Source of the DNA: Sphyrna mokarran
Taxonomy: Eukaryota
Assembly (NCBI GenBank): GCA_024679065.1
Contig: JAGIQG010000021.1
Span: forward strand, 20,088,001 to 20,152,000
Direction: 5' to 3'
Length of the DNA: 64,000 bases
Translations under genes and position numbers: made by a program
Notes under the pieces: model-generated
Databases searched by the model: none
Told to the model about the DNA's origin: nothing
What the model saw: the letters and a program-made list of their open reading frames with translations, nothing else
Shown: positions 18,190 through 62,045 of the stretch, one piece after another
Numbering within the stretch: position 1 is the stretch's first letter
How the letters are laid out: the number at the start of each line of letters is the position of its first letter

Positions 18190-18455
18190 GTATCACATAA
18201 AACACTGGTTAACAAAATTGATGCTAATGAAATAAGAGGTGTCAGTATTGGCTAGAATAAATAATTGGCTTAAGGAGAGAGAGAAAATATTGAGTCATAG
18301 TAAATGTTTACTTTCTAGACTGGAGGATGGTAGAAAGTAGCACTTTTTACCATCCTCCAGTCTGGAAAGTAAACATTTACTATGACTCCCCAAGAGTCAG
18401 TGCAAGGACCACTGTTTTTGTTTCTAAATGACTTTGATATTAGAGTACAAGTGTA
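18190..18455 (+). mobile_element. CR1 reverse transcriptase fragment containing an inverted duplication
   Basis: Degenerate HKxLxxK..IRGxVLxxINNWL...VNxxFxDWRMVES...PQxSVxGPLF...NDxDxxVQ motif order. Confidence 0.7.
18292..18388. repeat. Near-perfect inverted repeat, 47-bp arms, 3-nt loop
   Basis: 18292-18338 equals the reverse complement of 18342-18388 except at 2 positions. Confidence 0.95.
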
Positions 18456-19599: not shown

Positions 19600-20375
19600 C
19601 TGCCAGAAAAATGTGTTCTATAATCACTGACTAGAAAGGAATCTTCAGTCAGATATCCATACTGTGATTAAAGCTGCCTATTTCCACTTCCATATAGGAC
19701 TTCATTCCTGCCTCAGCCCTTCTGCTGCTATAATTTTCATCCATGCAACTGTTGATTATTCTAATGTACTTCTCCTGGGCATGCATTCTAACCTCCATAA
19801 ACTTCAGAGGATCCAAGTCCTAACGTACACCAAGCCCCATCAACCCATCACCCCAATGGTCATCGATCTATATTGACTTTCAATTAAATTTATTTTAAAA
19901 TTTTCATCCCTGTTTTCAAATTTCTCCATGATCTGTAAAGTTCTCCAAATGTACAACTTTCCAAAATACCTGCTGTCCTCTAATTCCAGTCTGTTGAACA
20001 TCCCTGATTTTAATTGCACCTCCATTGGTTGCAGGCCTTTAGATGCCTATGGCCTAAGGTCTGGAATTTTCTCCCTAAATCTACCTCATGTTCCCCCTTG
20101 AAACCTACCACTTTAACCAAATTATTAGTAAAAGATAAAAACAAATTACTGCAGATGCTGGAACCTGAAACATGACAGAAAATGCAGGAAAATCTCAGTA
20201 TGTCTGACAATATCTGTGGAGTCACAACCAAGCCAACATTTCAAGTCTGGCTGATTCTTTGTCAGAGCTAAACCATCTGCCCTAATACTTCCTTTTGCTG
20301 ATCAGTGTATTATTTTGCTTTATAATGTCTCTGTTAAGTGCCTTGGGGTAACTTATTGTGTTAAAGGTGCTATTT
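19600..20375 (+). mobile_element. L2 LINE 3' end, interrupted at 20131-20269
   Basis: IKAAYFH...SPSAAIIFIHA..DYSNVLLLG...LHKLQRIQ...HQPITP (ORF 19664-19876). L2-type tail aagtgccttgggg...gttaaaggtgctat. Confidence 0.75.
20131..20269 (-). mobile_element. Short Penelope-type terminal repeat (family 1) with decayed hammerhead
   Basis: Homologous to 31422, 53406 and 56907. Minus strand AGCT CTGACAA A GAATC AGCCA GACTT GAAA TGTT GGCT. Confidence 0.65.
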
Positions 20376-31421: not shown

Positions 31422-31519
31422 AAAGACAAAAACGCTGGAAAATCTCAACAGGTCTGGCAGCATCTGTAAGGAGAGAAAAGAACTGACGTTTCGAGTCCAG
31501 GTGACCCTTTGTCAAAGCT
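31422..31519 (-). mobile_element. Family-1 short Penelope-type repeat with hammerhead motif (core mutated)
   Basis: Minus strand AGCT TTGACAA A GGGTC ACCTG GACTC GAAA CGTC AGTT. Confidence 0.7.
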
Positions 31520-32393
31520 AGATGGCATAGAGAGTGGGAAATAGAGAATTCCTGCCACCATCTGATCTGACACAAGCCGGGTGCAACTGTCTTTTCCCCA
31601 GAACCAATCTGTTGCTACTTTGATTTCTGTTCACTGAAACCTCACCTCCTCCCCCACCCCCGTCCCATTCCCCCTTTTCTAATAAACCGATCAGAGAAAT
31701 CCAGCCTGCTCCCTCTGTATCCCTGAAGCTGCCTTCAAGGAAGAGGCTTCGTTAAAACGGTTCACTCCAGTGTTACGTTAACGTAATCTGCGGTTGGCTG
31801 CTGGAGATAATGAACAACATTAAAGAATCCGGATCTGGGATTCAATAATGGAAGTGTTATTCTGAGATTAATCTTTGAGAAGTCAGACCTAAAATCGGCC
31901 GATTTATTTGAAGAATGTCACATTTTTGCATCCACGTCGCTTATCCTCAGATATCACAGCAGCTCCCAACCCAACATCTTGTGAACTGAGGTCTGGCGAC
32001 GCAGCTGCAACCCTACAGCTGCTCATGTGTGCACAGAAAGTCTATTCTCGGCGTGTTTCACTTTGACTGGTATCCATAGAAGCTTGCAGGGGGGACGGGG
32101 CGAAGTTTGAGTTCAAACCGTTTCAATGTAATGTTACCGAGATGTCGCCTTGAACTGCAAATCCAACATGAGGTGTGTACTGTGTTGGGTATTTGCATTG
32201 GACCCAGTGAGGGATGGACAGGATGCTATGTGCTCCGGTGAGAATGCTGGTTCGACATTCTGCCTGGTTCTCCTCGAAGCTGTAATTCAAAGACCTGAGA
32301 TTTCCTTTCAATTCATTCTCAAAGATGAGAAACTGGACTCACTTTGGAAACCCTATTGCACCTGTAAATCCGTTTCCAATGTCCATAAGGTTA

Positions 32394-38487: not shown

Positions 38488-39576
38488 TCTTAGAGAGTGA
38501 GTTTGGATCCATACGGAGAAAAAAATAATTGAGTTTCATTGTGGGATTATTAGCATCCACTGTAGAAATTGTAGATGCTGGTATTTTCCAGTTGGTCTAT
38601 CTGCGTAATGATGGCAACACTTTGCTCTGCAATGTTGAGTCAGATGCCATTATCTTCACTATCGTCATTATGATTTCACCAGTTTGAGGGCATCACTTTG
38701 AGATTAATACATAGATGTGGGAATTAATCTGGGAATTCATAAGTAGGAACTTAGAATTCATAATTTTTATGTCAATATGTGGGAATTTACAAGAAATGAT
38801 GTTCTAAAGTGTAAGAATGAATAAAACTAGGTCAAAAACATACTTGTTCAGAAATTTTATACTAATCCCAGAATTCTTTTAAAATGTGGGTAAGTAGTTT
38901 GTGCAAAGCTAGTCATTGAGATTTAAATAAAGCTGGCCACTGTCACTTCTCTGGAAAAACATTAATATGTCTTCTAGTAGAATCATATTGGTATCTTTTC
39001 TATCCTGCTGCTTGATTAGTTCAGAGGTCAATAAATACAGAGAAGGAATCTTCAAATGCAAGCCCAAAAAACATTATATTACTCACAGGTCAAAATTCTG
39101 GTTAATTATAGAAACACTAACCTTTAGTTTGTTGAAATAAATCAAATTAACTAAATAGCTATTTAAGGAAGAATGTCTATACTTCTCAAAATATCCAATA
39201 ATACATATTGTAATTCAATGGTGTGGTGCAATGATACTAAAGCCAATATGGGGATGTTGAATTAAGATGTACCATTATCTTAGCAAAATTATATAATACT
39301 AAGAATGTAATCAAGAGATTGGTACAATTAACATAATAAGATCCTAGTTATGAATTCCCAGATTAATTTCCACATAAATGTATCAATCTCAAAGTGATGC
39401 CAATAGTGAAGATAATGACATCTGGCTGAACATTGCAGAGCAAAGTGTTGTCACCATTATGCAGATAGACCAACTGTAAAATAACAGCATCCACAATTTC
39501 TACAATGGATGCTGATAATTCCACAATGAAACACAATGATTTTTTTTCTGTATGGATCCAAACTTATTCTCTAAGA
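38488..39576. repeat. Long inverted repeat: arms 38488-38753 and 39337-39576, ~580-bp spacer
   Basis: Arms are reverse complements over ~240 bp (for example gcaacactttgctctgcaatgtt / aacattgcagagcaaagtgttgt), with scattered substitutions and one ~25-bp indel. Confidence 0.92.
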
Positions 39577-42988: not shown

Positions 42989-43057
42989 ATGGAGTTGCCA
43001 GCGGCGGGGGAGCACGTCTTTGCCGTGGAAAGCATCGAAAAGAAACGGATCAGGAAG
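42989..43057 (+). CDS. CBX4: CBX4 coding exon 1 (MELPAAGEHVFAVESIEKKRIRK), chromodomain start
   Basis: Near-identical to the vertebrate CBX4 N-terminus. 69 nt. Donor AAG|gtaatg. Confidence 0.97.
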
Positions 43058-43155
43058 GTAATGTGAGCAGCTCCGGCTCACCTCGCCACGTTATTGCCCG
43101 GCAGTAGTGCTGTCTGTGCCTCTCACTGACGAACGCTGTCTTTATTTCTCCACAG

Positions 43156-43199
43156 GGGCGGGTCGAGTACCTGGTGAAATGGAGGGGATGGTCTCCGAA
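43156..43199 (+). CDS. CBX4: CBX4 exon 2 (GRVEYLVKWRGWSPK)
   Basis: Chromodomain core. ctccacag| acceptor, AA|gtgagt donor. 44 nt. Confidence 0.97.
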
Positions 43200-43247
43200 G
43201 TGAGTCCCATTTCTGTATGTTATTTATGTGTGTTGGAGATGAACTAC

Positions 43248-43294
43248 AGTGTGTGTGTATGTGTGTGTGTGTGTGTGTGTGTATGTGTGTGTGT
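43248..43294 (+). repeat. (TG)n microsatellite, intron 2
   Basis: Direct TG run. Further TG/TA/CA runs at 43532-43557 and 43768-43820. Confidence 0.95.
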
Positions 43295-43604
43295 TTGCAC
43301 AGAGTGGAAGTCTTGCGGGACCCAGTCCGTGTCCCTTCCCTGACAAAATGCCACCAGTGAATTGGCAGTGGATAACCAATGTAACACACACACAAAATAA
43401 AATGGCCAATGGGAGTCCTGGAATGTCTTGTGGACTGTGAAAGATATGATAGTGTGTGAATGGAGTGAAAATGGCCTCCCTTTGCACACTGCTTGAATGG
43501 CAGCACTTTTAGTTCGTTTCAATTTTCCGCTTGTGTGTGTCCGTGTGTGTGTGTGTGTTTTTGAGAGGCTTTAAAGTGAACTGCTGATGTATCCTTCTCC
43601 ACAG

Positions 43605-43670
43605 ATACAACACGTGGGAGCCAGAGGAGAACATCCTGGACCCCCGGTTGCTCCTGGCTTTCCAACACAG
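43605..43670 (+). CDS. CBX4: CBX4 exon 3 (YNTWEPEENILDPRLLLAFQHR)
   Basis: Chromodomain end. ctccacag| acceptor, CAG|gtaaat donor. 66 nt. Confidence 0.97.
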
Positions 43671-43787
43671 GTAAATGCAAAGGTGGGGGTGGGTGGGTGG
43701 GCAGGAGGGACTGGAAAAACTCTGCCACTAGCCTGAACGCATACACACATCCTTGGATTATACTGCGTGTATATGTGTGTGTGTATG

Positions 43788-43819
<32 letters not shown>

Positions 43820-46021
43820 GAGAGGTCCAAAAGTCGAGAGCTTTCGAAAGTAGAGTGGCTGCACAGTTTCGTAATGAAACTAGAATAGAAGGCTGCAGTG
43901 CTTCGCTGTAGATGTGGTCGAAAGGATTGGAGAGTAGCCGGGATCGAGCGCCTTAGCGAAGCACATCCACCGTGAAATGTGTCAAGTTAAGGTCCCCGCT
44001 ACTACAAGGGAGGAAGAAGAGGGATCGATAATCAGCTGGTAGCGTTACGGCTCCAAATACCAGTATGTTTCCTGCCATGGTGGAAGTTGAAATTGTGCAG
44101 CAACATGTAAAGAAGCAATGATAAAATCTCAGAAATATCGGCGGAATAGATGCAGGGATATAAAAGTTTTTTTAAAAAAGAAACGTTTTTAACCACTGCT
44201 GCGGTGGTGATGTAAGTGTTGATGCGATGTTCCAGATCGTAGCTAGATGGTGCATTCATCTCCGAAGTGAGACTCGGGTGAGGAGGTTCTAGGCTGTCAG
44301 AACACAGAACGTCCTTCTAGCTATAACCTGTTTTTAATGGCCTTCTCTCTCCACTTCTGCTCCATGATGCACCTGCGGGTGCATTTTAAAGGAGCGATGC
44401 TTGTGCCTGACGTTGCAACCTGTATAAATGGGCAGGAGACGCGGGGTTAGGTATCCTCTTTAATTAGGTACACGATAATCGATCTGACGGGTTACCATGG
44501 CTGCCTGCAATCATGTGAATAAATATAGTGGAGCCTGGCTGCGTGAAACCGGGTGGGAGGGACAAAAAAGTTGCTTATCACTAGACCTTCGTAATATAGG
44601 GATAATTGAACTGCCAGCGGAGTCAGGGATACGCATTATTTTACAGTAAGTTTAAATATTTGCATATTAGGCGAAAATGACTGCATTATCTTGGTTTAAA
44701 TACGATCAAAGAGACCCTGCAGGACAAGGGGAGGGCCAATGATTGCAACAGCAATATCCTTTCTCTCCCGCTGCCAGTTACAAGACGGTTGCAATTACTC
44801 AAAATTAGCTAACCAATAACTTCTGCATATTTTGACTGAGTTGCGGGAGCACTGAACATATAACACCAATAAAATCCCCCCACTTTGTGTAAAAAAGGCA
44901 ACTTTAATCATTGCACTTCTCAATGTAGTGATTGCCAAAGTATCCTGTACTTGGTATGTTGCAGTCGAGGTCCTTTTATGGTAGTAAGAATGCAAAAGTC
45001 TGATTTCAATTAATTCAACAGTATAGTTTCACACTGAGAGATTTAATACAAAGCATTGGAGTCCTGTGCAGAAAAATTAATTATCAAAAACAACTGATGC
45101 ATGCTCAATGGCATAATTGCATACTGACTTAAATTCATTTAACAGTAATAAATGGATAGTATGAAATGTCACAAAAACATTAATGAACTGTACAAGGAAG
45201 CCAAAGAGAAAAGGAGTGAGTTGTTACCCTGGCTCAAAGTTGATATTCGATATTTTTTGAATGCATACATTACGTTGCCACAAAACCACAGTTATTAGCA
45301 CACTGATGGGAATTAATGAATGTTTCTTACTTTTAGGATTCATGTGCTGATATTTTGATTGTTCATTGCTGTGTAACGCTGTGGTACAGTTGAAATAGTC
45401 CTATGTATTAATATATTGGACATCTCAGAATGTATTTTAGAGCGATTTTGAATTAATATTCCATTTATGGATGCAAAATTTGGCAATGACTAGAGAAAGG
45501 CATATAATAAATTGGAATATGAGCAGTAAATGAAAAGTGGTGGTTTTTCCAAACTATATGGATATAGGAATGAGAAGGGTTATTCTGAATATGTGAGCTT
45601 GTTAGATCACACTAGATTTTTTCAGAGCCAGATTTGGCCACTGAAAAGCAATTGAGATTGCCTTCTCACTAAAGGTTTACAAAGCATTATTATCATTATA
45701 GACCATTGTGTGGGCAGTTCACTTGTTATATAAACTCCTTTATAACACCCCTCTCCACAATAAAATGCAAAACTTGATTCTGCATCACCAGTGACAATCT
45801 AATCTCAGTTGGCTACACAAATGTAAACATTTAATTAAAATCGTTAGAGTACTTAGTGACTGATTAAACTAAGAAGATTTAGAGATAACATATATAATAG
45901 TGAAACCAAAGATTGCAGTTCTTTATGGGGTTGGGAACAGAAAACAGTTCTTAAAATGATTAGTAATTTCATTATTGTAAGTGACTATAATGCTAACCTC
46001 TCTTTTAACCAATGACCACAG

Positions 46022-46088
46022 GGAAAGACAAGAGCAGTCAATGGGTTATCGTAAGCGAGGACCAAAGCCCAAACACCTACTGGTTCAG
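46022..46088 (+). CDS. CBX4: CBX4 exon 4 (ERQEQSMGYRKRGPKPKHLLVQ), AT-hook-like motif
   Basis: RKRGPKPK motif of Pc-class CBX proteins. Branch point tgctaac, cacag| acceptor, CAG|gtaata donor. 67 nt restores frame. Confidence 0.96.
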
Positions 46089-47049
46089 GTAATATTATCT
46101 GTCTAATGCTCATTTGTGTGTTAAATATGAACCAGATTGGAGCAATTTGTCACATGCTATCTGGCTTCATATAATCGAGTTGAATTCAGTTTCACAAATA
46201 TATTCCCAGCCACCTTGTATACTTACTTTGAGCAGGCAGTTGTGAAATGTCAGCGTAATATTATAAAATAATGTTGACATAGATCTTAGAACACAAGGGA
46301 GCCTGTTGCTGAAAGGCATAAATAGATCTGGAAAAACAGATGTACATTCGAGCATAAAATTAACTGAATTTGTTTTATTTCAACTATAATATTGTTTTGA
46401 AAATAACGTACAAAACATGTTTAAATAGTAGATTTCATGCTGCCAGATACAGTTCAGTAGAATTTCAATCTGTTAATGATCCCAATTTGCAAATACAATC
46501 ACATCCATCTAAAACAACCAGGCACTGGTTCATTTTTTTAATGGATTCATAAATGAATAGTGAGCATTCAAAACAACATCGACAGTAAGTAACCAAAAAC
46601 AGCGTCCCTCTTCAGGGACACCAAATTCATGCTGGTGTCCATTGCTGCAGAAGGTTTGGTGCTCACGGTTGAATGGGTTAGTAACAACTGTTGTGATGGA
46701 GTGGTTGCTGGTTGCTCTGATACAACAACCAAGAAGAAACTAATGGTTGGCTCCACGCATGGGTTCCTCCTCGACATATAAAGCGTATTGACAGTGGAAT
46801 CGACCTTGCCTTTCCTCAGCTGGGAATGGAATCTGGCAGGCGGGTGAAATGAGACAGATAAAGGTGAAAATGTAACCCATTTCTGTTTTGGGCCTTGCAT
46901 CATGGAGTGACTCAAAGGCAAAACCCCCATTTCAATTGGATAAATGAAGATCTGCTCGCCAGATTTAAGTTGTAGTCTTGCCTTTTAATTAATTGACTAC
47001 TTACCAGAATTTGAAACCCAAATAATACTCATCTGTTCTTCATTTGCAG

Positions 47050-48444
47050 CTGCCAGCTTTTGCTCGTCGCTCGAATGTTCCCTCGGAGCTGCAGGATCCG
47101 AGTTTGGATGAAGAGCGATCCAAGAGCGATATCCAACAGCCGCCCATCAAACGGCAATACCAACTGAACAGCAAAAAGCTTCACCAGTACAAGCCCTGTA
47201 ACACTGAGGAACAACGCCAGCATCAAGCTACTAAACATTTCTACCAGCTCAACAGCAAGAAGCATCACCATTATCAGCCGGACATCATGTACCCCAATCA
47301 ACAGACCGACTCTCACCGAAGCGAAACAGAAGTGAACCACGAACAGCATCAACCTATTCCGGAGCAGGAAGCAGAGCATAGCTTTCTAAAGAATGGGAAT
47401 CACAGCCCCGCTGTAGGCATGGAGAAATCTGAAGTCAAGGAGATGGATTCGAAACCCGGGAACGGGCCAGAACTAGACAAGGAAAGTGTGAAAAACAATG
47501 GCATGAATGGTAGAATGAAGATAGTTAAAAATAAAAACAAGAACGGTAGGATTGTAATAGTCATGAGCAAATACATGGATAATGGGATCCAGTCGGCGAA
47601 GGATAAACACAGTAAGAACGGGGAAGGAGGGAATGAGTCAGTGGCGAGCAAGACTGGAGACCGGGAGCTATGGATAGTTAAAAACGGATATGGCAAAACT
47701 GTTGCGGCGGAGGACAGAGTAGAAAGGGGCGAGGATAATAATGCTATAAATGGGAGGCAAGAGACCGCTAAGCCTCGGAATGGCAACAAAGAGGCGGAGG
47801 CCGATAAGAATGGTTATTTTAGGACTCTGGTGGCTAAAGAGGCGGTAGCTACAGCGCCAAATAAAAATATGAACGGGGAGGTAGCGGAGAAAGGGAGTGT
47901 CCAGATAGCCAGTGGGAAGGAGATGAGGACTCGGAAGGAAGCCTCGGGGCAGGAGCAATGTGAACCGGCAGCTCCAGTGCGATGGGCCTGTGATTCGGAG
48001 GTCTCCAGGAGGGATGGCTTATACTCCAAACTGTCCAAGTCCCGGAAACGCTACTTGTCCGAACCCATCGTGGAGAAAGAGGCCAAGAAACCCACGACAT
48101 GCAGAAGCATCAGTGTCCCGGGAAGCGCAGTCCAGCTGGAGCAGGAGGATCTCATTGAGCTGCAGGGGATCGATAGTTATCGGAATGAGGGGATTGATGG
48201 CTCTTTGCACTCAAATCCCGAGCAGCCAATCGATTTGAGCTGTGTAAAGTCCAGGCCAGAGCCCCAGAAGGCGGCGGCGGCACAGCAGCAGCAGCAGCCG
48301 GCGAGTGAGGAGAAAGACGGGAGGGCGAGGGGAGAGCAGCAATATCCATGGACTGGCCTCAAACCTTACCTGGGAAACCTGATAATCACAGATGTCACAG
48401 CGAACTGCCTCACGGTTACATTTAAGGAATATGTGACGGTGTGA
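47050..48444 (+). CDS. CBX4: CBX4 exon 5 (464 aa + stop); total protein 546 aa, E3 SUMO-protein ligase CBX4/Pc2
   Basis: PAFARRSNV, two YQLNSKK(L/H)H.Y.P motifs, MKIVKNKNKNGRIVIVMSKYM (SIM), PIDLS (CtBP-binding), C-box GNLIITDVTANCLTVTFKEYVTV*. Acceptor tttgcag|. Confidence 0.97.
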   Translation: MPAFARRSNVPSELQDPSLDEERSKSDIQQPPIKRQYQLNSKKLHQYKPCNTEEQRQHQATKHFYQLNSKKHHHYQPDIMYPNQQTDSHRSETEVNHEQHQPIPEQEAEHSFLKNGNHSPAVGMEKSEVKEMDSKPGNGPELDKESVKNNGMNGRMKIVKNKNKNGRIVIVMSKYMDNGIQSAKDKHSKNGEGGNESVASKTGDRELWIVKNGYGKTVAAEDRVERGEDNNAINGRQETAKPRNGNKEAEADKNGYFRTLVAKEAVATAPNKNMNGEVAEKGSVQIASGKEMRTRKEASGQEQCEPAAPVRWACDSEVSRRDGLYSKLSKSRKRYLSEPIVEKEAKKPTTCRSISVPGSAVQLEQEDLIELQGIDSYRNEGIDGSLHSNPEQPIDLSCVKSRPEPQKAAAAQQQQQPASEEKDGRARGEQQYPWTGLKPYLGNLIITDVTANCLTVTFKEYVTV

Positions 48445-49235: not shown

Positions 49236-51267
49236 GTGGTTACCAGCTGGCGTCATTTCTCGGAAGCCACAGTTTGATATGTGTCACATTGACAAACGGT
49301 GCAGATTAAAATAGTCAAGGAGGCAACATCCTGTGACTTGGAGCGAAGTAACTACATCAAAGTACCATTGCCCTTCAGGCCCCTGAGCCAGGAATTCATT
49401 GCTTCTTCACAGGGTGTGCGACGTCGAAATGACTGTTACCCTCTCGGGGCATTTATCTGAAAATGGAATTATTGGGAATACATGGCTCTCTTAATCTCGG
49501 ACAAGGCGACCGTTTTACCAACTGATCGTCAAAGTATCTTTAAAACGAAGTACCAAAGTACCACGTTAATCCCCACTTTGCATTATAAATACAGAGCCAA
49601 GAACAAGGCTTTTGCTTTTTAACAATGATACTTTTGGAGTTTCCAGAAACCTATTCTCATTTAAGTCACTGCTGTAGCTAGAAACTGGGTAAGTGTGATC
49701 ATTGGCGTGTCCGAGGACCAGAAAAGAAAAACAAGTAAATTCAAGAGCCGTCTAGAAAAGAGAACATTATTGTGTGCCCCCAGCCCTTCCATTTATTAGT
49801 AAATTACATATCGAAGCAGTTTTAGTACAAAAAGTTTGTGGTTTGAGGTAAGGTGTTTTTGAGAAACACATTGTGAAAATCTTTACAATCCGGATCGGCT
49901 TGGAAAGCCAAGAAGAGAAGCCAAATTTAGTCAGATATTCTAAGAAGAGAAAGAAGTAAGAGAGATATTTGGTGTCAACTTGGTACATGGATGAGACATT
50001 TGTAAGGCTGCAATCGGTAGAAAGCCCCTGACAGACATAACAAATTAATAGATTTTGGAGTTTTCCAAAGTGTTGTTACAGACTGCCCAACTAGCCGTGG
50101 CTTTTGCAGCACTAAGCTTGGAATTCTAGACACTTTGCCTCAGATAGCTGTAAGCTGGCCCTACCTTGGACCAGTATGAATTTAGCCATTTATACTTCAG
50201 AAACGTCTTTACAGATGCTTGAAAGTTCCTATGTCTGACTGTTGCCGACCTGTGTCACCATGTTCTGTCTTTAGCTATGTTCTGTAAGGGGACAGAATCA
50301 ACAAGTGGAAAATAGTGAGTTCCTCGCTGTTTTGGTGTGGAGATACAGTGTGGAATTCTATATACAGAACAAGACAAATGGCATTGTCGACCAAAACCAA
50401 TCAAAATGAAAAAGTAGTGAGAATAGTCAAGACATATCCAACCCGGCAGAGCCCGAGGATCAAACTGCGGCTGTTAATCCTGACTCCCCAGGCGTCACAG
50501 TCCAACATAAACTTACACATCTTACTTCCTGGATCGTTCTGTTTGAACTTTGTGCTACTGGAGATTTGCAAAGGGCTGGTTTCATGATTGTGCTTGAGAA
50601 ATCTTGAATTTGAACAGAGTCCCACCAACATTAGCAGCTTGGGAAAGCCGAAAATTAATGCAAACATGGATGTAATCTATATGTTCCATTCCTGAGATCT
50701 TGTGGTAGCATCTCCGCAGCTCAGAAGACGACCGGAGAACTAAGTAGTGTCAACACAACAGAAATCTTCTTTCATGCGCCTTCGGAAAACCAAATACACA
50801 TTTGATAATGGCAACCAAATCATTTGTGAGGCTGAAAGAAGTGTGTGTACTCCTTTGAATATTCTCTGACAGATGTGCGTGCAGGTCTTTGAAGACTATC
50901 TGACATTGTCTCCAGTACTTTCTTTACCTAGGAAGAAGAGCGACTTTGATTTCTGATTATAAAACTGCAGATCTACCAATCCATTGTGTGCAATTTGAAC
51001 AATTGCATCGTTGGTATGTAGCACCTCGGTGCATAGTACTAATAAAGAAGGATATAAATAGCATAAAGACGACACAAACCTGCTCTACCTAAATATAGAA
51101 CAATTCGCACCATTTTCTTTTAGCCAGAATCTCCTTTTGCACCAATTACCTTCAGCCACCTCGATACTATGTTTATATGGTACTAAAAAGATGCTTCTGA
51201 GTCTGTTGGATTCCAATTCTCTCACCAAGATTCGAGCTGGAAGTGAACTGGTGAAGGAGATATTTTA

Positions 51268-51972
51268 CCCAGTCTCCCAGTCAAATCGGTGGAGATAGTA
51301 TCACCCAGTCAAACTGGTGAAGATTGTATCACCCAACCTTCTAGTTAAACTGATGAAAACTGTATCACCCCAGCTTTCTAGTTAAACTGTGGAGACTGTA
51401 TCACCCAGCCTTCTAGTTAAACTGTGGAGACTGTATCACTCCAGCTTTCTAGTTAAACTGTGGAGACTGTATCACCCCAGCTTTCTAGTTAAACTGTGGA
51501 GACTGTATCACCCCAGCTTTCTAGTTAAACTGCTGGAGACAGTATCACCCAGCCTTCTAGTTAAACTGTGGAGACTGTATCACCCCAGCTTTCTAGTTAA
51601 ACTGTTGGAGACAGTATCATCTAGTCTCCCAGTTACACTGGTGGAGGCTGTATCACCCAGTCTCCCAATCAAATTGGTGGAAACAATATCAGCCAGTTTT
51701 CTAGTTAAACTGGTGAACACAGTCTCACCCGGTCTCCCGGTTAATCTGGTGAACACAGTATCACCCAGTCGCTAGTTAAACTGGTGGAGACAGTATCACC
51801 CTGTCTTCTAGTTAAACTGGTAAACACAGTCTCACCCGGTCTCCCGGTTAATCTGGTGAACACAGTAACATCCAGTCTCTAGTGAAACTGGTGAACACCA
51901 TCACCTAGTCTCCAGTTAAAACTGGTGGAGGATGTATCATCCAGTCCCCTAGTGAACATAGTCTCATCCCGG
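51268..51972. repeat. ~35-36 bp minisatellite, roughly 19-20 units
   Basis: Unit actgtatcaccccagctttctagttaaactgtggag. Homogeneous in the middle, diverged at the edges. Confidence 0.95.
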
Positions 51973-53405
51973 TGTTGCAGTTGGTACACTTCCAGTTACC
52001 TCATCAATTTAAACCACCGGAAAAGCACATGGCCATTTTGGTGGAAGTTCGGTCGGGAGGCAGCGGGCGGGCGGTCAGAGGCTGTAAGGATGGTTCACTA
52101 ACCAGGCTACTGCTGGCAAGAAAACCGACACTGCTAGGGTAAAAACGAAACAACTGGGACAGACCCTTATTTGACAAACGCGAATAGTGAGACTGCTCTC
52201 TGGTTGGGAAAATGTAAATGCTACATTTCTCAGCAGTTCACTCCCAGAGTGAGATCAGATCATGGGACACCACATACACATCCCACTTCTTATGAGATCA
52301 TCTTTCAAGCATGCCACTTCGCATGAATGTTTGAGATGGTGCACATTTGACTAGTGTGTGTGTAGCTTGAGACAAAGAGATTTTCTATGCAGCGTTTGAA
52401 TAAATTCTTGGATATTTTAATCCATTCCAGAAGATTTTTTTTCAAGGGGGAGGGGGAATTTCCAATGGGACACGGAATGATTGCCAATGTTACAAAACTG
52501 GGGCAATGTGGGGTCAGTGTTTATCGTGTCTTTAGCACACCGTTTAAATCCATTTCAACCAAAATTTGTCCACAGAAACATTCCTTAATTCAGTGCAAAT
52601 CACCCCCTTCAAACGTTCCGTAATTAGATGGGTGAAGGGCGGCACTGCGGACTGCACAAGCTCAAATTTTAGCCGTGGAAGCGGGAGATTAGATGCGTGA
52701 AGGATACCATGTAAATTGGAGAATGAAAGCGGGCGGTGTGCTGGAAAACTGAAGCAGCTGCTGATCTTGTTATGAGATATTATGTGTCAATTCATAACTC
52801 AACATTTCACTTCCTAAGGTGGCATCAGCACCTTTTCAGGAGCCCCGAAGGCGCTTCACACTGGCGTACAGTCAATCCGGACACCGCTCTCCCACAGAAA
52901 GCAAACCAAGTGAGCCGTCAGTGTGTGCTGAGTGAGCAATGTGAGACAGATTTGTTGCTGCTGTTGTATCAGTTTAGTGTCGTCCGCCCAGGTTTTAACC
53001 TGGGGGAGCAGGGTTTCCGGACGATGCAGCATCCTCACCAGTGCTGCACTGGAGCAGCGGCAGAGAGAGCAGGATCTGAAGCCGCAACCTCCCATATCAC
53101 AGAGTCACTGCAGGAAACAGGTTCTGTTCAGTAAAGCCAACATCCGAATTTGGACGGAGTTGATTAACGACAGTCTCTCTCCTCCGCCTGGGGTGGCGGT
53201 AAAACCTTACTGGGGGAGGGGAGAACGGTGAAGGGGGGGGGGAATTGTAAAATGGTAGACATTTCCTAAAAGAGTTTATGGGGAATGTGTTGTTGTGTTT
53301 GATGGAATTAGTTGCTATAATGGTTGGAGCGGAACCCCAATTCCCGCTCTTCCCCCGGGACTGGAACTGACCTAGCGAACAACAGGTACTCGCAAGGCAA
53401 GCTTT

Positions 53406-53533
53406 AAAAGACAGCGGATGCTGGAATCCGAATCAAAAACAGAAAATGCTGGAAAACCTCAGCAGGTCTGGCAGCATCTGTGCGGAGAGAATAGAGCCAA
53501 CATTTCAAGTCTAGATGACCCTTCGCCAGGGAG
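53406..53533 (-). mobile_element. Family-1 short Penelope-type repeat with hammerhead motif (core mutated)
   Basis: Minus strand CTGGCGA A GGGTC ATCTA GACTT GAAA TGTT GGCT. A partial opposite-orientation copy lies at ~53803-53862. Confidence 0.7.
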
Positions 53534-55349
53534 TTTAAAAGGGGCTTCCTGGTCACTGAGCACCTGGTAAGTTAGGCTCCCACTCTCGAGAATTCCTCTG
53601 GCCCTTCTGTTCATCTAACCTCCCTGTCTCATATTTCACAATTCCACACGGGCAGCAAACTCATCCGTTGCCCCAAACAACACTCACTGCCTCCCCGCTC
53701 ATTTTCAACAATAATCTTGATGTAGCCCCGTGTGTAAACTAGTGCCCCATTACCCTCCCAAGAAGGTGCATAGTGCACTCCAATGGCCAAACTTCCTCCC
53801 CCCCTCTCTCTGCGCAGATAGAGGCAGACCTGCTGAGAGTTCCCAACACTTTCTGTTCAGATCCCACTCTTCTCCCTCTCTGTATATAAATAAAACACAT
53901 TTCCTCGATTAGATTCACAGTTTTGGGATTCACACTGGGTAGTGGTTCAGAGTATTCCCCTAGTGAGAGGACATTTCTCCCCCCAAAAAACCTCTTCCTT
54001 ATTTCCAGCCCAGATTTTAGAAATATTGTTCTTATCCCACGATTCCATTAAGAATCCCCATTGCAAACCCCTAACCTCGCAATATTGCACAAACACCTAC
54101 TCCTACCAAGGTATTTTTTTAAAAAAAATTCCAATGTAGAATCTTCCCACTTCCTCCCCCCCCACCCCCAATCTGTGTCCAGAGCTGATATGTTGGTGGA
54201 AACGTGCCCCAACCGACATAGCAGCCAGCCAATGTCACCCTTCATAGAAAGGACGGTCTTTTTAAATGCAGGTTCGGATCTGAAGTAACTTCGCCGCCGG
54301 TGTCCCTGTTGCTCAGACACGGATTATGTCGGAAGGTCGGTCGCCATATTTCGGTCTCTAGGTGTCTGTCTGCAACCGTGACTCCAGAACTGAGAGGCTT
54401 TCAAACCAAGGGGAGGCTCGGGGAGCTGCTGTGCAATGAAACACGCAAAAAAATGTACCTGACCTGATTATTAATATTAATGAGACGATCTTTCCAGCAC
54501 TGGTCTACTTTGCTATTTTGGGTGATAGTGTAATATGGAAACCGCGAATTCCAATACACTGGAACAATGGCCGGCTTGCTCGGCGCCAGCTTAGCTTTTT
54601 CTCTGCCCATCTCCAGCCATTTACTCTGGCTGTAAACTTATTTCATCATTTCCACCTAATCATGATTAGATGTTAGAAATATGTCCGTCCAAAGGTGCCG
54701 CTTCATGGTTCCTTTGTGAGGCGTCGTAAAATAAACTGAATTCATGTTCTGGGCAGCGGAGGTTGGTTTGTTTTAAGTTAAAAATAGTACAGCTTTAAAA
54801 GGCGATTTGGATTTTCAGACATTTTCCCTCGATTCTTTCATGTCACGCAGTCCTTCTCGAACACAGTGCGCATTGAAACATTTACATTTATGATTAAGTG
54901 CACTTGATCATAAAATAATATCGCGGCAAACCTCCGAGTCCCCTTTTAATAACAGAATTGTTGTGCCATCCTTAGGACTGGTAACCTTCACCTAGAAACA
55001 ACCGCGCCCTGTGGGCAAATGTGTAACGAATCAATTCACAAACAATCGTGTTGTGAAAACTCGTGGTGATTCCTATTTGACGTTACATTGGAACGGAAAC
55101 GATTAAATTCACCTGACATCTTAATGCTAAAGAAAATTCGCGTGTTAAAGACTTTTTTTAAAAAAAATTCCATTTGAAAAATAAATAGGTCGACCAATAA
55201 AGCAAATACCTAGAAAAATCAGTGATGTAACCAGTGGTCAGTTGCCAGATGATGCTCAAATTGTGTAAATTGAACTCCATATGGAAAGTGAGATTCTCAT
55301 TAGAGCCGATTAGGAAATATTTACTCCAATGTACCTGTGGTATATGTGT

Positions 55350-55508
55350 TAGAACCTAAGAAATAGGAGCTATTTGTCCCTTCGAGCCTTCTGCATCATT
55401 CAGTAAGACATTCTACCTCAACTCCAACAACCTATCCCTGAATCCCTTTGTACCCCGAATCCATCTTGAATATACCGAACCACTGAGTTTCCACAGGTCT
55501 CTGGGTAT
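55350..55508 (-). mobile_element. CR1 3' UTR fragment
   Basis: agaacctaagaaataggagc...cccttcgagcct...cattcagtaaga, similar to 21558-21640. Confidence 0.6.
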
Positions 55509-56189
55509 ACCAGAGGTGTGATTCGTATCTGGAGATACCATATATTAACCACATTTGTATATTTAATGTGCATTGTATAATTGAGGAATATATATACAAT
55601 AGACTATATCTGAGCCATATTCCATCTGTGATATTCTGTCTTTTTGTATTGAATATATATTTGAGGTATACTGTATATCAGGATGAAGTATATAGTATAT
55701 TACGATGTTACGTAATATCATATATGGTTTTGCATCTTAGGTTAATAATACTTGACAATCTACTATCTATTGCATCTGGCAGCTTAGTCAGTGTGAAACA
55801 TGCCGGCCAAACTTGAAATCTGCTGGCAACTTTTGTGAATCCAGTTCAGCCATTAAGGTTAACATCATATTTTCCAACATGATTCGTCTTTTGGAGTCTT
55901 TCCCTTTTTGTTCCATTGGTGTCCATCCCATTGCCTGCAGGATATGTGTTCCTTTTTCAATACCATCTGTCCAATCTCTCATTCCCAGCCCACTTTCTTT
56001 CTAATTGGAAATTTGATCACGTTCATTTTATCACTTCTAATCTTTCCTCAAGATTAGATGCTTTCAACATTTATCATGGTAAGTTACTATTACCATCCAA
56101 TTTAGCCCTTAACTTGAAAGTTCTGATCTAATACATGATCACAGCAATACACTTGTGATCTTGTGACCTATGCCATGCACCTCTGGAAC

Positions 56190-56420
56190 TATTGTCTCGA
56201 ATATTTTGGTAAATAATCGATTATTACCTTAGATATCTCTAAAGTCTCTGACAGAGTTTGGCACCACATACCTTTAAACAAGTTACCATCATGATAGCCA
56301 CCATTAATGTTAATGTTTTTTTCCTATTCCCTCGAGTCTAGATCATTCTACTATTGATACAGCTGATGATTTGTATTTTTCTGTCTGACGGCACCACCTT
56401 TTGTCCTTAGTCTATAACTA
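56190..56420 (+). mobile_element. Ancient LINE RT fragment
   Basis: ttagatatctctaaagtctctgacagagtttggcac = LDISKVSDRVWH (LDISKAFDxVWH motif). Confidence 0.5.
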
Positions 56421-56906
56421 TTGTTTACCTTTCCAAACCTTCCCACGTTATATCCACCAATCTTCACGATTACCTACACCGTCTCCAGCAGCTTTCTATT
56501 TTAAAATCTCAAATTTATTTATGTCCAGCAACCCAACTCTACAACTGCGGTGTCTTTGTAAGAACTGAATACTGCTCCCACAGGTTCCGTTGACTGGATA
56601 GAGGAATAGTTTTTCAACCGGTGCATAATTCTTACGTTCTCCTTCGCTTTCAGCCCCTCTACCCTCGAATATCCTCGTCTTTTTTTTTGCTTTATCAATA
56701 CTGTTATGATCAGCACTCCTGAACATTTGTTCCTTCAAGTAAACCTTTAAGGATGATCTTTCTGCTGCCAGTAAAATTAGAACTACCACATTATGTAATC
56801 TTGACATACTGTTTATCTGTGCACAGTGTGAAGAATTTGTAAATCTGTCCATTTTTCATTCTAAAATATCCAGACTTTGAAAATCTAAGCTTGGTTTTAC
56901 TTATCC

Positions 56907-57009
56907 AAACAAAAGGAGAAAATGCTGGAAAATCTCATCAGGTCTGACAGGGTCTGTGGAGAGAGAACAGAGCCAACATTTCGGGTCTGTATGATCCTTC
57001 GTCAGAGCT
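56907..57009 (-). mobile_element. Family-1 short Penelope-type repeat, best-preserved copy
   Basis: Homologous to the 20131, 31422 and 53406 copies. Confidence 0.7.
56971..57009 (-). ncRNA. Minimal type-I hammerhead ribozyme motif
   Basis: AGCU-CUGACGA-A-GGAUC/AUACA/GACCC-GAAA-UG-UU-GGCU. Intact CUGANGA and GAAA boxes, stem II with one mismatch, 4-bp stem I, loopless stem III. Confidence 0.6.
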
Positions 57010-57224
57010 GACGTTTTACCCATATTTGACCTCATTTTCCCGACTTTCTTTCGGGTTTTCCCAACTTGGTGACATCCTGCAGTTTAGGCTTTGGCCTAAT
57101 ATGGTTTCTAATTTTGTTATAAAATATTGGGGATAGATGGATCTGATACATTTTATGTAGCGCTTGGTATTTCTGGAAGTTATTCAAGCATGAGTTACTG
57201 TCCATTGATAACTATCATTTTATA

Positions 57225-57494
57225 AGAAAGATGGCCACCCTTTTTCTTACACCTACAATGACTAGTTAATCTGTTTTAGTGATACTGGTTGAGAGCAAAG
57301 AGAATTGGCCACTGGGAGAATCCCTTGTTTGTCTTCAAATAGTACCAGAGGTACCCGGACAAGCAGACAAGACACCAATTTCCATATCCCAAACAATGGC
57401 AGCGTATTTGTCATGTGGTTACCTCATTGACCCGAATTATGTGCATGGCAGGGGCTTGAACATTGCGCTCAGTCATAAAACTGAGCCAAGCTGA
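57225..57494 (-). mobile_element. DeuSINE-like element (SacSINE1/AmnSINE1 superfamily)
   Basis: Minus strand tcagcttggctcagtt head, gttcaagcccc B box, Deu-domain-like ggtactatttgaagacaaacaagggattctcccagtggccaattctctttgctctcaacc. Confidence 0.55.
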
Positions 57495-60400
57495 TGTTGA
57501 CAGACACAGCACACCCAAGTTATATCTGTTGTCGTGTACTGTGTATCCGCACTGCTTGCATATCTGTTGCACGTATGCTATATCTATAAATATTCTATAA
57601 TGCAGTGGTGTACGTGGAGCGAACTATGTCCCTGCAATATGCTGCACGTCTTCAATGAATGCACACCCCTAGAAGACTGCATATGTGTTATGTATTGGTT
57701 TAGCCCTTGCAGTTAGCCATTTGAATCGGAGTAACGGAAAGTTTGGCAAAATGTCGGAAAAGGGGAAGGGGAAATGTCTGTTTTCAAAACTACTGTAAGA
57801 TTGCTATATCATGTGTAAAACTGCGGTAGTTGCTGCACTTTAGCCCTTGCTGGGATTGAATGCTCAATCGCGTGTATTTCCTATCTTTTTGGGAGTAGCA
57901 GCGTGTAACATGCTGGCAAACAGTTGGGAATTTGCAGCACATGAACAAATTCCCCGCTTCCCCAACCCCCAGCTTGGCAAGGGCCGTTTAATAGCCTGCC
58001 ACATAGGCTCATCTGGAGACAGCACACACCTTAGTAGGTGGTGGAGACTGATCGATAGATCAGAAGGATAGAATTTAAGTTCTAAAAGATTTCAGAGATA
58101 GGCGATCTGAAGGAGCTGACGCAGCAACATTATTATCTGCAGAAGCAATGTTAGCGAATGGACATCAGGAAAGAGACGCAAATCCCTCCTTTCTAATAAA
58201 TCAAATTACTCACTGAAACACACACACCTATTTTAATGCACTTAGATTCTTTGGTAATCTTTTACATTCTTGTCACACATTTTTAATGAAACGCTGCCCA
58301 ATGACGTACATAGAAAAATCTATCAGTACAAACACATAAAACCATGGAAATCCCTGGCGGGCTTTCAGGCGGGCGGCGAACCCGGTCTTTCTTTCTCAGA
58401 TACTGACTAATCTGTGATATATTTCTGACCTGCACAGACATGTTTGAATACGCACTAATGGTTAATAGTGAATTCCGCTGTTTAGTGAGGTGCTGCAACA
58501 GTTCAAACGGGCGGGGGAGGAGAGGCTGGGGGAGTGGGGGGGGTGGCCAGCACCAGTTGGAATGAATTCACAAACACTGAAGGTAAATCACACGGTAAAT
58601 GACAAGCCAGCGAGGAGAAAAAAAACCTGCTTTAACTCAGCACCAACTATTTAACACCGACTCTTTTTTTTTGCCAACGCGCTAATCTTTTCAATGGTGA
58701 ACTTCTTAAAACAAAGTTTCCAAAGAATCAGCATGTTTCTGTAAAGGAAATTACTTAAAAAGGAGTGCCATGGATTGTTTGTCGAATGGTACACACACAA
58801 TCGCCCTCCATGATGAATAGGTTGCAGATATGTCTTGGGGTTTGCGGCCATTCATTAAAGCGATGTTTTGGGAGTCAAGGTGATGTCTATTACCCTCCCA
58901 ACCGCTTTGTGCACACTGATTAAGCTGTAAATAAGTCAATCTTAATGAAAAGGCGTTCTGGCCGCGGGTTGAACAGCTGCCACCAGCCAGGTGATAAAAG
59001 GTTAGAAAACGCCGGTGGCTGGACAGGAGTCTGGACGGGGATCAGATATTCCTCTGATTCTTCAACCATAAATCTGCATAGAGTGCCTGGCTTCCAACGA
59101 CGGAGGAGAAGAGGACAAAAAATAAGAAACCCAAACTCTTTGTGATCAAAGTGGAATGCAAACTGAAAACAATCCCTGCCCTTGGGTAGCCAGCATTATG
59201 AGAATGTGGAGACTATAGCGGCGGCAGCAGGAGCAGGGTCAGGGCTTGTCTTTGATCTGTTAAAATGGGTAATGTGTGAACACAATGGCGGGGATGTACC
59301 CTGGTCATTCCCTGGTGTAATGGACCGCGTGTTCACTCCATTAAACATCAAATTCATGCATTAAATTAACAGATTTACAATAACCTTTCATTTTTCTCAT
59401 TTGATTCAACTATTATGCACCTCTCCTCGTTTATCATTGCCTTTATTTGTCTCTCGCTTCATTGCTCCATTTCCTCCCTACCCGTTACGCCATCACTCCT
59501 ACTTCGAGATTCATTTTTTGTTTCCTTTCTGCCATTTGCTTCCTTTTCTTCGCACAGGCTTGCAGAATGGCTAACATTACGGAATTGGCGGAGGCACTAG
59601 GGGAAAACGACGTGGGTGTTGAGGCGGCGCACAATGAGATACCTTTCCGCTGTTAAAACTCGACATCCGATTCGGAAAATGGCGTTGAGCTTTGATCATT
59701 GAAATTTCCTTTGTGCCCAACGGCGGGGGTGTGGTTGGAAAGGTTGCTGTATCGTTTAGGGTTTTTTAAAGATATATTCTGTTCCATCTGTAAATATGCC
59801 CTATGATCGTCAGACACAATGTGCTTGGTGTTCCAACGTTTATGTTGGTTTCTCTTCCACGTCAATCCACCAGAGACTCCCTTGGCCGGATGACATAGAA
59901 TGCAAGAAGACTTTGAAGTGATTTGGATGAAAAAGGGTTTCCAAATCTTTCAGGCTTCATCGGTAGGTTGTCCAGCACAGATCCAGAGGTTGGATTCATC
60001 AGCGACCATGCTGGAAATAATACATATAAAAGAGAGATAGTTGAAAAACAATCATATTGTTTGGATGTTAAAATCTTTGCCATGTTCCAGAAGCAGCATT
60101 GACAATCTCTGTCATTACAAGATTACTGCGTGGCAGTGTTTTTTCCATAAAATATTTCAATATAATTGGCACCAGATTTCTTTTTGAACCCCAGGCATTA
60201 CTTTTACAGATTTCATAGGTCTAATATAAGGGAAACTTTGTACTTCAAATATTGTATATTTATATCTGTGTATCTGAAAGAAAACATAAAGACAATTGGC
60301 CATAAGTAATGTTTTATTGAAAATGCCTCTTTCTTGCTCAGTAAGTAATAGGGCAAATGTTTAAACAATGTTCTGGAAGCCAAACCATTCTCCAAATTAA

Positions 60401-61806
60401 GAGAGCAGTTATAAAACTCCTTCATTTTTCAGCAACATAACAGTGCAAAAGAACTAATGACAATAAATGTAATCCCTCTTTTTCCCCTAAACACGATAAA
60501 TCCCAAACTCTAAATGGATGGAATAGTTTAATGATCTGACATGATCTATTTGGTCTCAGAGAATTTCTAAAATGCATTCTATTATAGAAAGATTTTTGTT
60601 AGTTAAGGTTTCTTGCTGAAAGTGAATCTGACAGTGTTAACCTCACAATACTAGTATACCTGGCTGAACAAAAGCAGTTAGCCTAACTATCCTACATTGG
60701 CATCCATGTCTGATTGAATTTGTTGAATGAGTGTGAGGAAATGATATTTGTACCAAATAAGTAGTGTGTCAGGCATACATTCTCCATGTAGAAAGTTGAA
60801 TTCTTGACTTCATAGTAAAAAAACTGGAAGTATTTTCTATCTTGATGTGATGTAGGATGCACTGATACAAATACATGGTATATTTTAAATTTCTAATTGA
60901 AACAAATTTGAATGGGATTAAAAAATAAATCTTGCATTTCCTTGGTGCAATCAGTCTTAAAATGACAGTGTCCTATTCTTCTCAACATTAAAATTACACT
61001 GTTTGCAAAAGTATTGCCAGAACTGCTTAATATTTGCTTTTCCTATTTCTTTTCAAAAGTTTTAATATTAAAGATATAATAATTTAGATGGTGAATTGAT
61101 TTCACTAGAATGGAGACTTAGTTGAAAGTGATTCAAGTCTTAAGAACTATGTACCTAAATGCCAAAGATGGGAACTATTAGCAAGGGAAATAGATTGCAG
61201 TCATTGGAACTCAATGACTGTTTCTACTTTGAATACAAAGCATTTGGGAAATCCAATACCATAGGGGCTGATTACTGCAGATCAATTGAAACCTGGTATG
61301 GTAACATAACTGTTCTAATGGGAAAGCAAACAGATGCTGTGCCACGACCAAAGGTGAATACAAGATAAGTATCTTTAATTTTTATGAAGCAGGTTGACAC
61401 TAATTGGGTTTGGTTATTGACTTATCTACTCAAAATCATGTATGAGAATATTCATTCATAATTCTGATTCATAGTTTTGATTAAAATGTAATACATGTTG
61501 CTATTTTGCCAAGAAGGTCATAGGAAACGGCCCAGTGACATTTTGTAGTAACGCTATACCAAGTAAATCTGATAACAGAGAACACTCATCAGCTGTGCGT
61601 ATGGGAATCTTTTTATGAGTATGACTCATGGTTGGCCAACGTCCAGGATGTAAGTGAATTCTGAAGTCCTGCTCAAAAGTTAACCAAATCCAGAAAGATT
61701 CCACTATCTATATAATATTTGACTTAATTGTTTATTAAATATAAGTCTTTTCAGGAATAAAATTGACATCACAAGATTTTGGAAAATAGGAGTGACTTCC
61801 AGGATT

Positions 61807-62045
61807 AAACAAAAAATGTTGGAAATACTCAATAGGCCAGACAGCTTCCAGAGAGTGAGGAACAGTGGTGACATTTCAGATTGATAGCCTTTCATTAGAC
61901 TGACAAAACAGTTCAGCTGCAATGAAAAGTCATTTACCTGAAATATTCATTTTGTTTCCTTCTCCCTAGATGGTACCTGACCCACTGAGTATTTCCAGTA
62001 TCTTCTGCTTTTATTTCAAATTTCCAGCATTTGCATTATTCTGCT
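61807..62045. mobile_element. Inverted pair of decayed family-1-like Penelope-type repeats
   Basis: aaaatgttggaaatactcaatagg (left) versus cccactgagtatttccagtatctt (right). Both have degenerate hammerhead-position sequences toward the centre. Confidence 0.6.

What the first reader, a model, noticed from the sequence alone, without database searches (positions are those of the whole stretch)
56971..57017. Near-intact minimal hammerhead ribozyme in a short dispersed element
Seen: the minus strand reads AGCU CUGACGA A GGAUC AUACA GACCC GAAA UG UU GGCU, with both catalytic boxes, stem II and stem I present. An AAAACGUCAGCU (the 3' half of the family motif) lies immediately upstream and shares the AGCU, like a head-to-tail junction. 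Established: Penelope-like retroelements and retrozymes carry minimal type-I hammerheads with loopless palindromic stem III that need dimerisation, and an extra A between A9 and G10.1 is a known natural variant. Inference: this is a ribozyme-bearing terminal repeat of a shark PLE or retrozyme. This copy has a stem II mismatch and C>U in stem III, so it may be weak or dead.
Basis: partly seen in the sequence, partly recalled or inferred. Interest (0 to 1): 0.7.

Follow-up and report, generated by a model that had tools for sequence, protein, structure and literature searches.

The report
Decayed Penelope retroelement hammerhead stub
This is a real but worn and likely inactive copy of the tiny hammerhead RNA motif that Penelope-type jumping genes are known to carry, one of very many short stubs in this genome, and the stubs likely start where the element's RNA starts rather than where the ribozyme would cut.

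Summary
The motif is real (57009-56971, minus strand) and far above chance. It heads a ~105-bp stub of a very abundant old repeat. Longer copies run on into reverse-transcriptase and GIY-YIG remains with Neptune-type zinc motifs, so it is the end repeat (pLTR) of a Penelope-like element, not a retrozyme. Three subfamilies keep the fold through paired changes (C3-G8 to U3-A8; stem I), but inserted copies decay at CpG: 2 of 69 are perfect. This copy is solitary, with a stem II mismatch and a broken stem III palindrome, so likely dead. The 'head-to-tail junction' is not supported: 2 cases genome-wide, about chance, and the AAAAC lies in a 7-bp repeat flanking the insertion. The one less ordinary trait: stub 5' ends pile up at the first base of stem I, 30 nt after a TATA box, not at the cut site (29 versus 2 of 90). 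That suggests cDNA copied from an internal start back to the 5' end of uncut RNA. This scan noted similar stubs before: 72 word-matched findings in at least 17 genomes.

The parts
56907..57011 (-). Solo stub of a Penelope-like pLTR: starts 2 nt before stem I, ends at about +103 (the shorter of two family end clusters, no 35-nt tail)
   Evidence: (family D5); 89 of 101 positions equal the family majority
56971..57009 (-). Minimal type I hammerhead motif: stem I, C3-G8 core, extra A, stem II with one mismatch, stem III palindrome broken by a CpG-type change, predicted cut between 56975 and 56974
   Evidence: cut site inferred from the standard hammerhead numbering
56907..56970 (-). Pyrimidine-rich sequence after the ribozyme; in full elements it lies between the ribozyme and the body of the element
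57013..57019 (-). Upstream copy of a 7-bp direct repeat, likely target-site duplication; holds the AAAAC read as a junction
56894..56900 (-). Downstream copy of the same 7-bp direct repeat
31423..31535 (-). Sister stub of subfamily B; its hammerhead (31519-31481) has the U3-A8 core, 5 of 5 stem II pairs, 4 of 4 stem I pairs and an intact palindrome: better kept than the finding
53403..53531 (-). Nearest same-strand family copy, 3.4 kb away; core broken (G at position 6), so no working dimer partner
20138..20271 (-). Further decayed family copy
61805..62044 (.). Head-to-head inverted pair of weak, diverged copies meeting near stem I

Best explanation
This is a short inserted stub of the end repeat of an old Neptune-type Penelope-like retroelement, carrying a minimal hammerhead motif that has decayed and is likely inactive here. 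Shown: the stub, its family, the link of longer copies to a broken RT plus GIY-YIG frame, paired changes between subfamilies, CpG decay after insertion, and where copies begin and end. Inferred mechanism: the parent element is transcribed from a TATA promoter in its pLTR, starting at the first base of stem I. Its protein nicks target DNA and starts reverse transcription at one of two internal sites about 100 and 135 nt downstream, as shown in vitro for the anole element. When it does so on the front copy of the repeat in uncut RNA, it runs off the RNA 5' end and leaves a 100-135-bp stub without the promoter. Priming from both strands would give the head-to-head pairs. The ribozyme would have acted in the parent RNA, with a partner copy or the element's protein; a lone, promoter-less, mismatched stub has neither.
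For: Link to a PLE: three long copies align over about 1.8 kb upstream of the hammerhead; L061 has the pLTR-frame-pLTR layout. All 24 database hits of a 339-aa open stretch (L083) are 595-1208-aa proteins, 20 with PF00078. The two tested hold RVT_1 and GIY-YIG. The CX4CxxC linker is in L083; the two cysteines inside GIY-YIG are in L061 and L074. Fold under selection in the parents: loop-CTGG subfamily U3-A8 92, U3-G8 6, C3-A8 2, C3-G8 0 of the 100 listed (219 matches). Loop-CYA copies C3-G8 51, C3-A8 21, U3-A8 19, U3-G8 6 of 97 (Fisher p 1e-4); both counted by eye. A third family has stem I AGUU/AACU, bases not in the search pattern. Decay: 10 of 69 copies keep the core, 2 of 69 are perfect, catalytic G12 is A in 24 of 69. 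Ends: 29 of 90 tail-selected copies start at -3..+4, 11 reach -40 or beyond, 2 start at +34..+38 around the cut site; 3' ends 52 at +91..+118 and 38 at +128..+139; 33 have an inverted neighbour. TATAAAT starts at -30 in subfamilies A and B despite different spacers. 664 subfamily-B copies are perfect from +1 with a non-family base at -1; 29 of 30 inspected lack the upstream TATA part.
Against: No transcription start was measured. No excess of G at -1, which copying of a cap could leave: G 22, C 39, A 39 of 100 listed. 36 of 90 copies start at +5 or later outside the cut-site bin, so ordinary truncation also occurs. The reference used for 3' ends stopped at +139, so that cluster may include copies that run on. 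Direct Pfam hits on this genome's own frames are weak (RVT_1 E 0.006, GIY-YIG E 0.02, both below cut-off; 1 weak RVT_1 hit among 17 pieces). The base at +1/+2 also looks like a splice acceptor. No cleavage was tested, and orthologous conservation of this copy could not be checked.
Confidence: 0.82

Rival explanations
1. Same element, but the sharp 5' edge is not a transcription start: it comes from splicing at the AG of stem I, from endonuclease cutting of the element's own repeat, or from joining at the AGCT palindrome.
For: A pyrimidine tract and a CTRAY-like motif precede the AG in the long copies of subfamilies A and C. In Drosophila Penelope the intron ends at the 5' end of helix I (PMC4209133). 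The anole enzyme cuts its own junction (PMC11167929). Several inverted pairs centre on AG/CT. The -1 base mix resembles the recalled exon-end consensus.
Against: Short copies keep the AG itself (A at +1 in 15 of 20; 16 of 18). Bases further upstream are unshared. Flanking direct repeats abut the 5' edge in 6 of 47 solo copies versus 0.9% in controls, so the flank behaves as target DNA, not as an exon.
Confidence: 0.25
2. A non-autonomous retrozyme or SINE-like unit that spreads by itself through self-cleavage and circles, with this site a head-to-tail junction.
For: Most copies are short; 12 letters upstream resemble the 3' half of the motif; animal retrozymes are reported to derive from pLTRs (bioRxiv 10.64898/2026.07.22.740005).
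Against: Junction pattern 2 times genome-wide, within chance. 1 direct neighbour in 90. 2 of 90 copies begin near the cut site. Stubs lack the TATA box and have ragged 3' ends. Longer copies join a coding frame.
Confidence: 0.06
3. This particular copy was kept as a working or regulatory ribozyme near the CBX4-like gene.
For: It keeps both catalytic boxes, which 10 of 69 family copies do; it lies about 8.5 kb past the gene's stop codon.
Against: Opposite strand to the gene; stem II mismatch; stem III self-duplex +0.8 versus -3.1 kcal/mol for an intact palindrome; nearest same-strand copy has a broken core; keeping the core at 14% frequency needs no selection.
Confidence: 0.04

Closest known systems
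Minimal hammerheads (min-HHR) in pLTRs of metazoan Penelope-like elements (Cervera and De la Pena 2014, PMC4209133; parts 1-2 of 4 read)
   Same: Type I, 4-bp helix I, extra base between 9 and 10.1, G10.1-C11.1, loopless palindromic stem III, mostly solitary copies tied to truncated PLEs; a U3-A8 core variant was reported there in Schistosoma.
   Different: Helix II is 5 bp here. No shark term was found in the one supplementary file with hits (one file not searched). The parts read do not map where solitary copies begin.
Poseidon element PAc of the green anole (Frangieh et al. 2024, PMC11167929; parts 1-2 of 4 read)
   Same: Hammerhead at the pLTR-ORF border; two internal RT start sites that define an optional tail; uncut RNA is the main template.
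   Different: PAc is Penelope/Poseidon clade and intact; this family has the Neptune-type linker and all copies seen are broken. PAc 5' ends of short copies are not described in the parts read.
Neptune clade EN+ PLEs (Craig et al. 2021, PMC8557442; passages)
   Same: C-terminal GIY-YIG with CCHH, CX2-5CxxC linker, partial tandems, inverted 5'-truncated neighbours, 30-40-bp tail.
   Different: No tree was built, so Neptune versus Nematis rests on motifs; no microsatellite targeting was evident in the flanks printed.
Adineta vaga Penelope pLTRs (Arkhipova et al. 2013, PMC3846280; passages)
   Same: TATA plus initiator-like sequence in the pLTR, palindromes at inverted junctions, 8-10-bp target duplications, solo pLTRs.
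   Different: There solo pLTRs were put down to recombination or deletion, and inversions to self-priming; here stubs exclude the TATA box and begin 30 nt after it.
Animal non-LTR retrozymes (bioRxiv 10.64898/2026.07.22.740005; passages)
   Same: Short, hammerhead-bearing, pLTR-related.
   Different: Retrozymes are tandem repeats; this family is dispersed or head-to-head.

Membership tests
Minimal type I hammerhead (PLE type) | CUGANGA and GAAA boxes with NUH site | tested here: met
   family majority likewise
Minimal type I hammerhead (PLE type) | Helix II closed by G10.1-C11.1, extra base after A9, 4-5-bp helix I | tested here: met
   helix II 4 of 5, helix I 4 of 4 in this copy
Minimal type I hammerhead (PLE type) | Palindromic 15.2-16.2 for dimer stem III | tested here: not met
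   This copy has UG; the family's commonest base is C at 15.2 (43 of 69), while 16.2 is A 41, G 26, as CpG decay of CG would give; intact in the 31.5-kb copy
Minimal type I hammerhead (PLE type) | Paired changes that keep the fold across relatives | tested here: met
   C3-G8 versus U3-A8; stem I AGUU/AACU in a third family
Minimal type I hammerhead (PLE type) | Site-specific self-cleavage | not testable with these tools
   needs a bench assay
Rfam hammerhead families | Covariance-model match | tested here: not met
   no hammerhead among 3 hits up to E 10 in 54000-60000
EN+ Penelope-like element | Single frame with RT then GIY-YIG, same strand, upstream of the repeat | tested here: met
   in longer family copies only, broken; absent at this locus
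EN+ Penelope-like element | pLTR tandem, inverted truncated neighbours, optional 30-40-bp tail | tested here: met
   L061 tandem; 33 of 90 inverted; two 3' end clusters about 35 nt apart
Neptune clade | CX2-5CxxC linker plus CCHH in the endonuclease | tested here: met
   linker in L083; cysteine pair inside GIY-YIG in L061, L074; definition from PMC8557442
Neptune clade | Placement in an RT tree | not tested
   no tree built
Non-LTR retrozyme | Head-to-tail tandem units | tested here: not met
   1 direct neighbour of 90; junction pattern 2 genome-wide
Non-LTR retrozyme | Abundant small circular RNA | not testable with these tools
   no RNA run could be laid on this locus

The most novel reading that the evidence does not exclude
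The stubs are a genome-wide fossil record of Penelope 'strong-stop' cDNAs: the element's RNA begins at the first base of the hammerhead, 30 nt after a TATA box, and internally primed reverse transcription on uncut RNA runs off that end. The ribozyme thus sits at the extreme 5' end of the message, was kept by selection (including a U3-A8 core lineage in a vertebrate), yet was mostly not cut in the RNAs that got inserted.
Probability: 0.55. Interest if true: 0.45.

Novelty: new member of a known kind. Interest (0 to 1): 0.24.

Why it matters
The copy itself is ordinary debris. The family statistics bear on an open question: what the hammerhead does in Penelope elements and how their odd solo and inverted ends arise. 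If the stub edge is the RNA start, then one cap-mapping experiment ties together the promoter, the internal RT starts seen in vitro and the head-to-head repeats, and limits the ribozyme's role to something other than making the template's 5' end. It also warns annotators that such motifs are very common here (14 profile hits in 200 kb of spaced samples) and are not evidence of working ribozymes.

Tried and rejected
Rfam: no hammerhead match. Single-strand folding: no signal over shuffles. Head-to-tail junction: rejected. Cap-derived G at -1: suggested by small samples, not supported in 100 listed subfamily-B copies. Cut-site-defined 5' ends: 2 of 90. Pfam on this genome's broken frames: only sub-threshold hits; no solved-structure match. 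Sequencing runs: no RNA holder listed, so no reads were laid. Earlier findings by sequence: nothing shown. A paper recalled on dimer cleavage of PLE hammerheads was not held and is not used. A short-motif scan found no second chromodomain gene between 48.4 kb and 8 kb past the window end. No species identification, RT tree or orthologue comparison was done. Paper searches listed no study of these repeats in cartilaginous fish or of stub 5' ends; the library lacks most subscription papers and Repbase.

Full report
Observation. The minus strand at 57009-56971 reads as described. Both catalytic boxes, the extra A, a 4-pair stem I and a 5-pair stem II with one A-C mismatch are present; positions 15.2-16.2 read UG where the family has CG. 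A descriptor for the C3-G8 motif finds only this site in the window and none in 150 simulated windows. Rfam has no match and the 39-mer folds no better than shuffles. This is expected for a motif whose third stem forms only between two copies (PMC4209133).

Family. The motif heads a repeat of about 105 bp with four copies in the window's repeat scan and eight profile hits. The genome search gave 3854 candidates, 40 scored. An exact 38-letter tail pattern has 1180 matches against 0 for its control. Twenty spaced 10-kb samples hold 14 profile hits, which extrapolates roughly to the order of 10^5 copies, older families included.

Parent element. Some copies continue upstream. A search with that upstream part returned 30 loci, whose hammerhead-tail regions are printed and whose upstream frames show RT-thumb and GIY-YIG remains. 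Three such copies align over about 1.8 kb, and L061 has a repeat copy on each side of a broken frame. Of the 20 loci fetched by an RT-thumb query, 17 have a match to the window stub region within the 3.3-kb locus. Direct Pfam hits are weak. The 339-aa open stretch in L083 finds 24 longer proteins; 23 carry PF28514 and PF26215 and 20 also PF00078. The two scanned carry RVT_1 and GIY-YIG. The CX4CxxC linker and the cysteine pair inside GIY-YIG fit the Neptune description (PMC8557442, passages); no tree was built. All frames seen are broken, so the family is old.

Was the fold selected? Between subfamilies, yes. Copies with loop CTGG have U3-A8 in 92 of 100 listed and C3-G8 in none. Copies with loop CYA have C3-G8 51, C3-A8 21 (the CpG product), U3-A8 19, U3-G8 6 of 97 (p 1e-4). 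These were counted by eye from the listings. The same core swap was reported in Schistosoma (PMC4209133). A third family shows stem I AGUU/AACU at positions outside the search pattern; its stem II was complementary by construction of the pattern. After insertion, no: among the 69 of 90 tail-selected copies that cover the motif, 10 keep the core, 6 also keep most pairs, 2 are perfect, and G12 decays like any CpG base.

This copy. It is solitary. The nearest same-strand copy, 3.4 kb on, has a broken core. Its stem III self-duplex is unfavourable (+0.8 versus -3.1 kcal/mol for the intact palindrome). It lies about 8.5 kb past the stop codon of a CBX4-like gene on the other strand (the CBX4 label rests on a recalled PIDL motif). 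It is most likely inactive. A better-kept U3-A8 copy stands at 31519-31481.

The junction. The pattern joining the 3' half to the 5' half occurs twice in 2.77 Gb, against 1550 matches of the copy start and a background AAAYG rate near 0.003: 2 to 5 expected. The other case adjoins an inverted copy. Here the AAAAC belongs to a 7-bp repeat found again 6 nt past the 3' end. Such flanking repeats reach that score in 6 of 47 solo copies and 0.9% of mismatched pairs (47 of 88 copies examined were short and without an inverted neighbour). A target-site duplication explains it.

Where copies begin and end. Ninety copies were chosen by the tail pattern alone: the first 89 listed plus the 90th, skipping one already held as L011; two are partners of one inverted pair. 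With A of stem I as +1, 5' ends fall: 11 at -40 or beyond, 7 at -39..-8, 5 at -7..-4, 29 at -3..+4, 14 at +5..+14, 14 at +15..+33, 2 at +34..+38, 8 later. The predicted cut is between +35 and +36. 3' ends form two groups, 52 at +91..+118 and 38 at +128..+139 (the reference stopped at +139). Thirty-three copies have an inverted neighbour upstream, one a direct neighbour. In 30 copies chosen for an intact ribozyme, 20 are short; family identity is 15 of 20 at +1 and 5 of 20 at -1. In subfamily B, 18 of 30 are short and 16 of these keep A at +1. 664 copies are perfect from +1 with a non-family base at -1, and 29 of 30 inspected lack the TATA part (five loci overlap). In long copies TATAAAT begins at -30 in both subfamilies although the spacers differ.

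Mechanism (inferred). A TATA box at -30 is the usual RNA polymerase II spacing (established knowledge); TATA and initiator-like motifs in a pLTR were noted in Adineta (PMC3846280, passages), while Drosophila Penelope uses a TATA-less internal promoter (PMC2377424, passages). The anole element starts reverse transcription at two internal sites that bound the tail and uses uncut RNA (PMC11167929). Starting at these sites in the front repeat and running off the RNA's 5' end gives exactly the stubs seen. Priming on both strands would give head-to-head pairs, several of which centre on the AGCT palindrome. Against it: no RNA end was measured, no cap-G excess appears, and many copies start later than +4. 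A splice acceptor at the same place is the main rival; retention of the AG and unshared flanks argue against it.

Novelty. Minimal hammerheads in PLE repeats and their scattered solo copies are published. Searches listed no study of this family or of stub 5' ends; one supplementary file of PMC4209133 could not be searched, and supplements of the bioRxiv preprint were not seen. PMC6155905 was seen as passages only. Earlier notes of this scan describe similar stubs and the same start-site idea in other genomes (8 of 72 shown); I had formed the reading before opening them, and they are not independent support. Verdict: a new member of a known kind, this copy likely dead; interest 0.24.

Noticed in passing
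window 31481-31519 (-): Best-kept hammerhead among the window copies scored: U3-A8 core variant, all stems paired; missed by a CUGANGA search.
   Followed up: yes
window about 43000-48444 (+): CBX4-like Polycomb gene: chromodomain exons near 43016, 43165, 43615, 46053 and a 472-aa last-exon frame with CBX7_C.
   Followed up: partly
window 61805-62044: Head-to-head pair of diverged hammerhead stubs, likely an older family.
   Followed up: partly
window 51259-51956: 36-nt minisatellite array.
   Followed up: no
window 38488-39576: Long inverted repeat, arms about 89-91% complementary, MITE-like.
   Followed up: no
window 18292-18388: 47-nt near-perfect palindrome with 3-nt loop.
   Followed up: no
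L020:1500-2200; L098, L112, L167: Inverted pLTR copies upstream of stubs; several pairs centre on the AG/CT of stem I.
   Followed up: partly
L287-L316: Third, older family: long copies show a TTAAAA-like box near -30 and a CTAAC-like motif plus pyrimidine tract just before the AG of stem I.
   Followed up: partly
family A, stem II third pair: An A-C mismatch is shared by 13 of 69 copies, so this copy's mismatch may be inherited from a parent element rather than new damage.
   Followed up: partly
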